Shown: one piece after another, positions 14,816 to 19,318 of the stretch | How positions within the stretch are numbered: position 1 is the stretch's first letter | Layout of the letters: each line of letters starts with the position of its first letter | NCBI GenBank assembly: GCA_012026655.1 | Contig: JAAILG010001083.1 | Coordinates: 1 to 64,000, forward strand | Direction of reading: 5' to 3' | DNA: 64,000 nt | From: Hydrolagus affinis | Lineage: Eukaryota | The notes under the pieces: model-generated | Seen by the model: the letters and a program-made list of their open reading frames with translations, nothing else | Databases searched by the model: none | What the model was told of the DNA's origin: nothing | Position numbers and translations under genes: made by a program

Positions 14816-15845
14816 TTGTTGTTGCCTTCTTCTCAGTCTGACAATTGCTGCCTTTGCCACCTGTATTGAAGTGTGTCAAATTTCCACATTTTTTCGCTAG
14901 ATGGTATTGTTTGTCAAACGCGGGGCTTTTTGCAAACGTGTCGACAATCAACGGTTCAAAAATGACATGCAATTTTTACATACAATCGACTAATGTTTCA
15001 TCAGTTCAAATATTAATGAGGTTAAAGGGAGTATTGCTGAGGGTGGGGACGGAAACACTCATCACCTTGAGTCCGGCAAGATACTTTGATACTCACACCA
15101 GCAATCACTATTATAGATTGCTGGATCATTGCAGAAAACAACAGGCAGTGGGTGGGTTGCATTACAATGACTTGCATTTCTCTGTTGACTGTTCTTGGCT
15201 CAAGTCCAAATCCCCAAATAGATTTCGCACTACAGCTCCCCAACAATAAAGATATTAACAAACTTAACACTAAGTTAATCACAGCTTCTATTGACTAAGT
15301 ACGCTTTTCGAATGTCTCCGAATCACTCGGTTTTCACACAGGTGACTCCCAGGCAACCTGACTGCAATAAGAACATCTTTCAAAATGGGAATCCGGTTCA
15401 ATGCAAGAATAAGCGTGACATTTTGGCTGATCTACAAGAGTTCAGCTAAACAGCCCGTGGCCTGTGATGTAATTTCCCCTGGTTGGAAGATCTGAGCTTA
15501 GGTTTTCCATAAGTGCGGCAAGTTATTTCCAGATCTCAGCAAACAAGTTGGATCATTAACTAAGGTTTTTTTTAGGGGGAAAAGGTGGTAAAAATCAGAA
15601 ACCATCTGCACTGAAAGTAAAACCATGCAATGTTATCTTTAAAGTTTGAACTTTCGTTGCACATTAAGATTTACAACACATTGAAGAACGTGGTGGGTTT
15701 GCATTTCTGTGCTTTGAACTACCCTTTATTGAAGGAGCGCAAATTTTTGTTTTCATTTAAAGTGCTCACAATTGAATTGAACTCTACTGTACTGAAGAGA
15801 ATTCTAGTTTGAAGTTAAAAGTGGCAGCAAAACCGAAGATCCCAC

Positions 15846-15999
15846 CTGCATTCGGTTCATAGCCTCGCGCAGCTGATCTAGTTGATGAGCGGAGCTGAGC
15901 GCCTCGAGTCGTATATCGGTCAGTTTCATCTCCTTCTCTCTCAGCTCACTGCGCAGTTGCATTATGGTTTCAGCTTCACCATCGATACAATCAGAGATG
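15846..15999 (-). CDS. NAV2: NAV2 exon ISDCIDGEAETIMQLRSELREKEMKLTDIRLEALSSAHQLDQLREAMNRMQ (coiled coil)
   Basis: gtgcag acceptor, CAG|gtggga donor, 154 nt. Confidence 0.96.
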
Positions 16000-17869
16000 C
16001 TGCACATGACAAGAGGAGAGATGTGAGCAAACATATATAAAAAAAAACAGCACGGCTCAGTCAATCAGAATTCACTTTGCGTATCCCATTGAAATTAAAA
16101 TGGCTCAATTTGATCTTTCACGGGTGGCTTAGAATCAAAACGTCATTTGTTTGATGCAAAGTGTCATTTATTTTTCTGATGTTAAATTAATAACTGGAAG
16201 CAATTAAAACCATTCAGCACTCTGGTCACCAATGTTTTCAAACATGGAACAATGAAATTAAAAAAAATGTTAGGGCTTGAATATATTTCTCCAATTAATT
16301 TTATACTGAAATGGGCATCAACCTGATTTCTGTTTCAAAAGTTATGGAGGGTTATTAGAAAATAGAATTAAGAGCTTTTCTGTCCAGTGAATATAACTAT
16401 GCAACGACCATTAAAACTTGCATGTTTTGAATTCAGATGTTGGTCGCAGATAGATAATTCAATGAATCACATTTGAATTTTATATTAGAATTTTCCAATG
16501 TACAGTAGACATATGCACAATAATAGTTACACAAATGTGATGGTTTGAAATCTTGTGCAGCTCTAACTCTTAATGTTAAGTTACATTTAAAATCTGAATC
16601 ACTTAACATTGTTGAGTGTTTTTTGTTCCATGAAAAAAACAGATGTCTAGCCATTAAACGCTCCCATGTTTGACAATTGGTCACAGATACTTGGGATAGA
16701 TGTGAAGCTGCTCAGCAATAGATCCAGAAAGCAGTGATCCGTAAAACAAAAGATGTGCGGTTATAATTAATGCTGAAACAAACAAGTGAAGGGCAACACA
16801 AACAGGAAACTGTTTGCTCTCTCTGGACACGCTTTGTTGAATTGAACACTTTTGGTTCAGGTGGAAGGTCAACATCGAGTGTCAGTTAAGTTCTTCAGTG
16901 GCTTGTAAAAACACTCGGTGAAAATATACACAAGAGTTAAAACGAGAGGGCAGCCAGCCCTGGATCATCTTCTTGATCACTTCTGAAGGCAACGTGGATC
17001 GCTGCATTTCAGTAAAAACGTTTGGACAACAAATGAGTGAAAATAATTGAATTTGTTCAGGCTGGTCACACAAAAAAGGAACACATGAGGAGATCAGGCA
17101 GAGCTGATGTGGGATGCACACACACTGCAGTTATCTCAATAGCTACTTTGATACAGCTCATAAATTTAGTCATGAACATGCTTAAGACGCCTAAATGAGC
17201 AAGTTAGTGTCCAGGTCAAACAAAATAAGTTATGTTGCAGTGGCCAACAAAAAGGACTACATATAAAAAAAAGTATTCCCTCGTTTGGCAGGGGTTTATC
17301 TGTGGTAGACAATAGTTTGAGTCCCCCTTCAAGTTTCAGTGTGAAATCATCTCTTTTTTTTTACTGGTGTATTTACCACATTCGAGCAGTGAGAAAGTAA
17401 TAAAGAGGGCAGCAAATGTTGTATTTTACCATGACAATGAAATGCTGGGAATGCGACCATTTTGATAGCTCCTGTATACCCAGCCAGGGGCAGCCTTCAT
17501 TTCCCGCACACACAGGTTAGAAGAAAAAGCACTACACAATAGGGACATTTAGATAAAATATGCATTCATAAACCAACTTTGACCATGATCATTTAATTAC
17601 GCGATCATAATGATCTCGTGATGAAATTATCAATCAGGAATTAAAGAGCGAAACCGTCACAAAAAAACTAAAGCTGCCAATATCTGTGAGTCTGCCTACA
17701 AAGAGAAATATACAATTTATTTTTCAACAATGAAGGCTGAAGCACAAACACACCTGAACACATCTTTCATATTTTCCCCCAAACAAAGTGTTTTTTACAA
17801 ACAAAGAGAAAGGAGTTGTCCTGGCCAACAATTCCCCAGTTATAATTTGTCATTTATTTCATTATCGAT

Positions 17870-18025
17870 TATGCGCCACTGCTGTGTAAATTGGCTGCCC
17901 TGTTTGCCTGCAAATACACAGTCCTTTATTGCTAATTCCTGTGAAGCGCTTCGAGACGCCTTGATGATATAAGTCACGCTATCAAATGCTGGGATTACTA
18001 ATATTATTACTATTATATTATTATC
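17870..18025 (+). mobile_element. Degenerate SINE core and tail
   Basis: cactgctgtgtaaattggctgcc...tgtgaagcgcttcgagacg...caaatgctgggatta. Confidence 0.75.
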
Positions 18026-18132
18026 AATTCAGTCTGCTAACTTCGAGGATCTATTAGATCATAGTTGTTCCTTAACTGCTTTACACATTCTTGTTTGTCT
18101 TCCCGCAACGAATAAAACGTGTGTGTACATAC

Positions 18133-18311
18133 AGCGAGTTGGAGTGTGAATTTCTCATCATTGGGGTAGATGGAGTTGACCCGTTGTGAGGAAGCTTGGG
18201 GGAGGAAGGCAAGGACGAGTCAGGTGTGTTCATTTCTTCAATGTCTGAATGAGACGAAGCTGACTTGGGTGACTTCTTTTTGCCGAAAGCCTGCTTGAAG
18301 GAGCTTCGTAA
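18133..18311 (-). CDS. NAV2: NAV2 exon LRSSFKQAFGKKKSPKSASSHSDIEE...PSSPKLPHNGS...NSHSNS(L)
   Basis: tgtttag acceptor, CT|gtatgt donor, 179 nt. Confidence 0.95.
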
Positions 18312-19318
18312 CTAAACACAAACAGACACATTGACTCAGCGTGAGATACAGCAAAAAAGGCTAGGAAGGAATGAGTGCGAGGTGCACAATGTATTTCAAG
18401 CAACTCTACAGATGTATTTTATGGACGGGTTTAAACACATGAAAGGTTTCTTAAGAGTAGATCAACATCGAATGATAACCCAAAATGTTGCTACAGAAAT
18501 TTCTTTTCATGAATGCATCAACTGATAATGCAGTGTTATCTAACAGAGAAATTAGATCAGGAATAATATATGACTTGACTGTAATGCAATTGTTACAGTC
18601 CTGTACAGTGTCCAGCTCTGTGCATTGACCCAAAATACTTTGTTCTGATAAACATGATTTTTAGTGTAAGCAGGTCGCCAGATAAAGGTATAGACGTTTA
18701 TCAGTACATTGCTGCATGTCTGGCCAGGAAAATAAATTAATCTCAGTTTAAAAGTTCCCATTGTGGTAGACCCCATTAAACTGTGGCATTTTGGAAGCCA
18801 GCCAAAAAACACGCCATACAAAAGAGTGACTTCGCTTGTAAGTCCCAAAACAAAAGCAGGCATTGAAATTGACAGTAATTACATGGTATTTGAAATGCCC
18901 GTATTTGTGGATTACTCCGAACAAAATATTATAGCTAATGACTATAATGACTGCATAAAATATAAACGTCCACATTTATTTAAACGACCGCTGCTTACAA
19001 CAACTGTGTATTTGAGGGCAATGCCACTTAGTTTTACAAAAACGATACAGCGCGAAACACAGGGGTATTATAACTGAATGGGCAAGAAAGGAGACAGAAC
19101 TGTACATTATATTGCAGTGAGCATTCCAAACCGCAGACATATTTTCTACTCTGCTCATTTTCAATAAATACCCAAGATTTATTACTACTAAATGTGCGAT
19201 TTAAAAGGGGAGATGGTTCATTCGATGGAAATGTCCATAGATCTACCAAAGTACCGGCTTTGGTAAGGACTGGCTTGTTTCATGTTAAGGTCATTTTCAA
19301 GCAGAAGAGCATACTTAC

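What the first reader, a model, noticed from the sequence alone, without database searches (positions are those of the whole stretch)
17430..17494. 65-nt frameshifted exon resembling the NAV3 cassette exon: possible NAV2 poison exon
Seen: between the ...NSHSNS(L) and ISDC exons the minus strand reads ctttttcttCTAACctgtgtgtgcgggaaatgaag|GCTGCCCCTGGCTGGGTATACAGGAGCTATCAAAATGGTCGCATTCCCAGCATTTCATTGTCATG|gtaaaa. That is a branch-point motif, AG, 65 nt and GT. From memory, human NAV3 has an optional 22-aa segment SPLVWPPKKRQNGPVIYKHRSR at exactly this junction. Adding one base after CTG-CCC-CTG-GC gives LPLAWVYRSYQNGRIPSISLS(C). Then P-L-x-W, QNG, the length and the phase-2 ends all line up. As written, inclusion shifts the frame and hits TAA 12 codons into the next exon. 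Inference: an ancestral NAV cassette exon survives in NAV2, either converted to an NMD-inducing exon, decaying, or carrying a 1-nt assembly error.
Basis: partly seen in the sequence, partly recalled or inferred. Interest (0 to 1): 0.7.

Follow-up and report, generated by a model that had tools for sequence, protein, structure and literature searches.

The report
In-frame optional NAV2 exon, not poison
In a chimaera (cartilaginous fish), the nerve-growth gene NAV2 has an ordinary optional 102-base exon that RNA reads from a close relative show is sometimes included; it adds 34 amino acids without breaking the protein, and it likely shares an ancestor with an exon-like stretch at the same spot in the sister gene NAV3.

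Summary
Its letters and the donor at 17430 check out. An AG 37 nt further upstream gives a 102-nt exon (17531-17430) that is in frame and stop-free and holds the W and QNG motifs without any added base. Raw RNA reads from one sample of a close relative show 18133>17531 (4 reads), 17430>15999 (10) and skipping (15); no 18133>17494 joint and no indel in the exon is listed. The same 34-aa insert is already in annotated NAV2 of Callorhinchus milii (30/33 identical) and the shark Heptranchias perlo (17/33), each beside skipping isoforms. The genome's NAV3-like gene has a 96-nt in-frame exon candidate at the same junction that aligns in register from the donor (8/22; 0 of 100,000 shuffles), so the NAV3 link holds. 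Poison exon, decay by frameshift and assembly error are not supported; minor use of 17494 (under 3 reads per run) is not excluded. Ordinary cassette exon, modest evolutionary interest.

The parts
17430..17531 (-). NAV2 cassette exon, 102 nt, phase 2 at both ends, in frame, adds 34 aa
   Evidence: open frame; joints 18133>17531 and 17430>15999 in RNA reads; same insert in P0267, P0171, P0358; tblastn of P0267 residues 1814-1846 lands on 17530-17432
17532..17533 (-). 3' splice-site AG that is used; no other AG in the 43 nt upstream of it
   Evidence: AG list; joint with GT..AG ends, 4 reads at 4 starts in X2
17548..17552 (-). possible branch point for the 17531 acceptor (inferred from motif and position only)
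   Evidence: sequence; untested
17428..17429 (-). 5' splice-site GT of the cassette exon
   Evidence: joint 17430>15999: 8 reads in X2, 2 in X3
18133..18311 (-). upstream NAV2 exon, 179 nt, ends in phase 2
   Evidence: 100% identical to C. milii NAV2 over 60 aa; joints from 18133
15846..15999 (-). downstream NAV2 exon, 154 nt (likely start of the second coiled coil; inferred)
   Evidence: 50/51 identical to C. milii and H. perlo
15962..15964 (-). TAA that would end the 65-nt form only; not in the frame of the skipped or 102-nt forms

Best explanation
The stretch 17531-17430 is an in-frame 102-nt cassette exon of chimaera NAV2 that is spliced in or skipped in RNA of a close relative, and inclusion would add 34 residues to the linker just before the predicted second coiled coil, likely tuning the protein rather than destroying the mRNA. 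Shown: the frame, both splice joints, skipping, and the same insert in two other cartilaginous fishes. Inferred: the exon descends from one that was present before NAV2 and NAV3 split, since the NAV3-like gene carries an exon candidate at the same junction and phase with matching W-V-x-R-x-x-x-N-G spacing. Inferred and untested: the protein is made, and the insert changes linker length or a short interaction motif in a cell-type-dependent way.
For:: the 102-nt form is open through both flanking exons; joints 18133>17531 (4 reads, 4 starts), 17430>15999 (8+2+0), 18133>15999 (7+4+4), all GT..AG; inclusion about 0.46, 0.20 and 0 in X2, X3, X4; a 34-aa insert in 3 of 114 cartilaginous-fish proteins (C. 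milii XP_007885892.1, 30/33 identical; H. perlo XP_067850207.1 and XP_067850208.1, 17/33), with skipping isoforms in both species. NAV3-like exon candidate G000:C18771:4585-4680, 96 nt, in frame; last 22 aa 8 identical, 0 of 100,000 shuffles; with free suffix length 1 of 5,000; local alignment 14 of 20,000; best score of all open frames of the intron (37 against 22 next). [quoted passage not shown]
Against: RNA support is one sample (X2-X4 = S2) of another, closely related organism, with few reads and much unspliced RNA. Downstream joints (10) outnumber upstream (4), which leaves room for a second acceptor below the listing threshold. The exon evolves fast: 17/33 to the shark against 57/59 and 50/51 in the flanks; 3 substitutions in 102 nt against contig X1, two of them changing a residue, no fewer than the intron rate predicts (1.3 expected). 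Only 2 of the 22 cartilaginous-fish species named show it among the isoforms listed (at most 15 per cluster); in C. milii 1 of 11 models has it and the later RefSeq model skips it. Splicing of the NAV3-like exon was not shown, and the name NAV3 for that gene rests on recall and elimination among three paralogues.
Confidence: 0.85

Rival explanations
1. Poison exon: the 65-nt form from the 17494 acceptor is the main or a regulated product and sends NAV2 mRNA to nonsense-mediated decay.
For: The AG and a CTAAC 23 nt upstream exist; the form would stop 116 nt before the next junction. NMD depletes such forms, and joints under 3 reads per run are not listed. Downstream joints exceed upstream ones 10 to 4.
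Against: No 18133>17494 joint listed in 3 runs, although X2 is rich in unspliced, likely nuclear RNA where decay should hide it less (inference). Poorest pyrimidine tract of all sites compared. The 37 nt upstream of 17494 are conserved as coding sequence in C. milii and H. perlo. 4 against 10 is within chance (two-sided binomial about 0.18, worked by hand).
Confidence: 0.06
2. A real but weakly constrained, decaying ancestral exon: in frame and so tolerated, included as splicing noise, with no selected role.
For: Fast divergence against the flanks; no deficit of substitutions against the intron; absent from listed isoforms of 20 of 22 cartilaginous-fish species and not seen in any tetrapod NAV2 among 247 other proteins, 25 unparsed.
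Against: Exact length (34 aa), frame and about half of the residues are kept between a chimaera and a shark; inclusion near one half in X2 and zero in X4. This rival shares the anatomy of the best explanation and differs only on function.
Confidence: 0.25
3. One-base assembly error hiding a 66-nt NAV3-like exon.
Against: Contig X1 spans the whole stretch at depth 38 with no indel in the exon; X2 reads (about 18 deep) show none; C. milii protein reads the same frame without an extra base.
Confidence: 0.01

Closest known systems
Callorhinchus milii NAV2, predicted RefSeq XP_007885892.1 (P0267), residues 1814-1847
   Same: Same junction, same 34-aa length, 30 of 33 residues identical.
   Different: Three residue changes; the other 10 C. 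milii models seen, including XP_042197258.1, skip it.
Heptranchias perlo NAV2 isoforms X1 and X2 (XP_067850207.1, XP_067850208.1)
   Same: Same junction and length; isoforms X3 and X4 skip it, so it is annotated as optional.
   Different: Only 17 of 33 identical; the NG motif is changed.
Exon candidate of the NAV3-like gene in the same genome (G000:C18771:4585-4680, minus)
   Same: Same junction, phase 2 at both ends, in frame, P-x-W-V-x-R-x-x-x-N-G in register from the donor.
   Different: 96 nt (93- and 75-nt in-frame acceptors also possible); 8 of 31 identical; TGCATG 16 nt after its donor, absent around the NAV2 exon; splicing not shown.
Cyprinid nav2b 27-aa insert (Cyprinus carpio XP_042609496.1; Cirrhinus molitorella KAL1247403.1, KAK2867107.1)
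   Same: Optional in-frame insert at the same junction, identical in both species.
   Different: Shorter; weak likeness to the shark insert (30-40 of 5,000 shuffles), marginal to the window's (141-151 of 5,000), none to the NAV3-like exon. Orthology is unproven.
Poison (AS-NMD) cassette exons
   Same: Optional exon in a neural gene; a nested out-of-frame AG exists.
   Different: The spliced form seen keeps the frame and has no stop.

Membership tests
In-frame alternative cassette exon | AG acceptor and GT donor used in spliced RNA | tested here: met
   Joints 18133>17531 (4 reads) and 17430>15999 (10 reads), GT..AG ends; one sample of a close relative
In-frame alternative cassette exon | Both inclusion and skipping occur | tested here: met
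   15 skipping reads in the same runs; H. perlo isoforms with and without
In-frame alternative cassette exon | Length divisible by 3, no stop in frame | tested here: met
   102 nt, open
In-frame alternative cassette exon | The longer protein is made | not testable with these tools
   Needs proteomics or ribosome profiling
Poison (AS-NMD) exon | The included form carries a frameshift or premature stop | tested here: not met
   The only upstream joint listed gives the in-frame form; 18133>17494 not listed
Poison (AS-NMD) exon | Premature stop more than 50-55 nt before a later junction | tested here: met
   True only of the hypothetical 65-nt form: 116 nt
Poison (AS-NMD) exon | Form rises when NMD is blocked | not testable with these tools
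   No such data among the 4 runs offered
Poison (AS-NMD) exon | High nucleotide conservation of exon and flanks | tested here: inconclusive
   No deficit of substitutions against contig X1 (3 seen, 1.3 expected), but numbers are small and no distant genomic DNA was available
Paralogous NAV2/NAV3 exon pair | Same junction and phase in both genes | tested here: met
Paralogous NAV2/NAV3 exon pair | Sequence likeness above chance | tested here: met
   0 of 100,000, 1 of 5,000 and 14 of 20,000 shuffles by three statistics; shark insert 2 of 5,000
Paralogous NAV2/NAV3 exon pair | The NAV3-like exon is itself spliced | tested here: inconclusive
   Depth under 1 on the exon and joints swamped by repeats
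NAV2 orthologue | Colinear high identity to named NAV2 proteins | tested here: met
   24 tblastn matches to P0267 across window 59747-5268, most 81-100% identical

The most novel reading that the evidence does not exclude
One ancestral navigator cassette exon, older than the NAV2/NAV3 duplication, survives in chimaera NAV2 as a two-way switch: the outer acceptor (17531) makes a longer protein and the nested acceptor (17494) makes an NMD target, so one exon sets both isoform and dose.
Probability: 0.06. Interest if true: 0.55.

Novelty: already known. Interest (0 to 1): 0.2.

Why it matters
It removes a false poison-exon candidate and gives read support to an exon that public annotation shows only patchily (1 of 11 C. 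milii models seen). The likeness to the NAV3-like exon suggests an optional exon kept in both copies since the gene duplication and lost or unannotated in most NAV2 lineages. That is useful for navigator isoform work and for the history of alternative exons after duplication, but it is an ordinary kind of event. Five paper searches listed no title on this exon; the two papers opened did not mention it in the passages seen.

Tried and rejected
Word-index search with the 40-aa exon frame: no candidate; weak, since the proteins with the insert are longer than the 2000 aa searched. HMMER search of 1.84 billion representatives with the same query: 4 hits, the ones inspected are repetitive unrelated proteins, discarded. 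Pfam: no family on the exon frame. The look-up of sequencing runs: no RNA holder listed; the RNA runs came as additions and were judged only by the lay. Lay on the NAV3-like locus: swamped by repeats, no junction information. ESM Atlas gave no answer for the NAV3-like upstream exon, so that gene's name stays unconfirmed by a tool. Supplements of PMC9877351 (6 files) held none of the 4 search terms. NAV1-like intron (L008): no frame matches either exon well (best 27 and 25 to the NAV2 exon, 21 to the NAV3-like one, against 37 for the pair). In-frame inner acceptors at 17471, 17468 and 17444, and upstream ones at 17576 and 17614: no joint listed. Other inserts at this junction (Mobula 10 aa, Scleropages 15 aa, single mammal and sturgeon models) do not resemble the exon and were set aside. 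No TGCATG within 250 nt of the NAV2 exon; scattered YCAY only, so no regulator is proposed. The insert holds no [ST]-x-[IL]-P motif as defined in PMC9877351 (read by eye). Earlier scan notes: none near; one on arthropod navigator first exons, unrelated.

Full report
Gene and organism. The minus strand carries NAV2. The exon at 18311-18133 is 100% identical over 60 aa to Callorhinchus milii NAV2 and 92-97% to sharks and rays, and C. milii P0267 gives 24 tblastn matches between 59747 and 5268. The window is therefore from a chimaera close to, but not identical with, C. milii. Both flanking exons find exactly three places in the genome: this one, C18771 and C26645. I call these NAV3-like and NAV1-like from recall and by elimination; no tool named them.

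The observation. An exon from 17494 to 17430 would be 65 nt, shift the frame and stop at 15964, 116 nt before the end of the next exon. The 17494 AG is the end of a Lys codon and has 6 pyrimidines in -20..-5, against 10 for 17531 and 8-15 for the best AG near 23 other exon starts (that set was chosen by pyrimidine count, so it is a lenient comparison).

RNA reads. One contig set (X1) and three single-cell RNA runs of one sample (X2-X4, a different organism label) were laid on 15800-18400 at 85% likeness, reading 27-30% of each RNA run. Joints with GT..AG ends: 18133>17531, 4 reads at 4 starts in X2, 0 in X3 and X4; 17430>15999, 8, 2 and 0; 18133>15999, 7, 4 and 4. No joint to 17494 or any other acceptor is listed; the tool hides joints under 3 reads. 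Inclusion works out at 0.46, 0.20 and 0, or 0.32 pooled, on few reads. X2 differs from the window at 20 of the 40 substitution rows shown, so this is a close relative and not the same individual. No indel is listed in the exon. X1 spans the stretch in one contig at depth 38.2 in both exon bins, and its 9 gap letters are accounted for by 8 listed elsewhere plus one deletion that cannot lie in those bins; 4 indel rows were not shown. Substitutions in the exon: 17477 (silent, X1 and X2), 17521 (changes a residue, X1 and X2), 17476 (changes a residue, X1 only).

Other species. Of 361 navigator proteins fetched (365 less the 4 hits), 114 are from cartilaginous fishes: 104 skip, 3 carry a 34-aa insert, 2 a 10-aa insert, 1 one extra residue, 4 lack the region. 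The three are C. milii XP_007885892.1 (30/33 identical) and Heptranchias perlo isoforms X1 and X2 (17/33); H. perlo X3 and X4 skip. Among 247 others, 215 skip, 25 were not parsed, 3 cyprinid nav2b proteins share a 27-aa insert and 4 have unrelated inserts. The cyprinid insert resembles the shark one weakly (30-40 of 5,000 shuffles) and the window's marginally. These are the best 120 hits of two searches plus at most 15 members per cluster, so absence is not loss.

The NAV3 link. In the NAV3-like intron at the same junction lies a 96-nt AG..GT stretch (C18771:4680-4585), in frame and phase 2 at both ends. Anchored at the donor without gaps, 8 of the last 22 residues match the NAV2 exon; 0 of 100,000 shuffles reach the score. 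The lengths 19, 22 and 31 were my choice (7, 0 and 19 of 100,000); a free-length version gave 1 of 5,000 and a local alignment 14 of 20,000. It is the best match among all open frames of the NAV2 intron (37 against 22). The shark insert also matches it (2 of 5,000). Its splicing was not shown.

How it likely works. Shown: regulated or stochastic choice between skipping and a 102-nt in-frame exon. Inferred: the insert falls at P0267 residues 1814-1847, outside Pfam domains (ubiquitin-like 1965-2072, AAA from 2106) and a few residues before what I take to be the second coiled coil. PMC9877351 (passages and section 10 part 1) describes two coiled coils before the AAA+ domain, poorly conserved disordered linkers, and isoform differences confined to those linkers, which fits. 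Against a strong role: the exon diverges far faster than its flanks and shows no deficit of substitutions against X1 (3 seen, 1.3 expected).

Literature. Five searches listed 4, 2, 3, 1 and 0 papers. I saw passages, one section part and a supplement search of PMC9877351, and passages of PMC11231287; the rest only as listings. None of what I saw mentions this exon or a NAV2 poison exon. Maes 2002 and Coy 2002, which treat navigator splicing, were not read.

Verdict. A real, already annotated, in-frame cassette exon with a likely paralogue in NAV3. The poison reading came from picking an inner AG. Minor use of that AG remains possible but has no support. Interest 0.2.

Noticed in passing
window 17800-18060: High-copy interspersed repeat in the intron upstream of the exon (X1 summed depth up to about 14,800 against 38; RNA reads on both strands). 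Similar-looking high-copy stretches lie in the NAV3-like intron (L007 1270-1700, 2680-3100).
   Followed up: no
L007 3164-3169 (G000:C18771, minus): TGCATG 16 nt downstream of the NAV3-like exon's donor, the usual place of an RBFOX enhancer (recalled); none near the NAV2 exon.
   Followed up: partly
L007 3260-3281: The NAV3-like exon has three in-frame acceptors (96, 93 as NAGNAG, and 75 nt), so its length may vary.
   Followed up: no
window 18133 donor (proteins P0275, P0277, P0060): Mobula birostris and Scleropages models carry 10- and 15-aa inserts starting with YV, as the window's upstream exon would if read past its donor; possibly a second 5' splice site.
   Followed up: no
proteins P0040, P0047, P0156: A 27-aa insert at the same junction is identical in two cyprinid genera; it may be the teleost form of this exon.
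   Followed up: partly
window 42378-31076: P0267 residues 1586-1610 found no tblastn match in the window; a short or divergent exon may lie in this intron.
   Followed up: no
proteins P0121, P0170, P0268, P0270-P0273: UniRef names several C. milii proteins 'Neuron navigator 3' although they cluster with NAV2 and match the NAV2 junction exactly.
   Followed up: no
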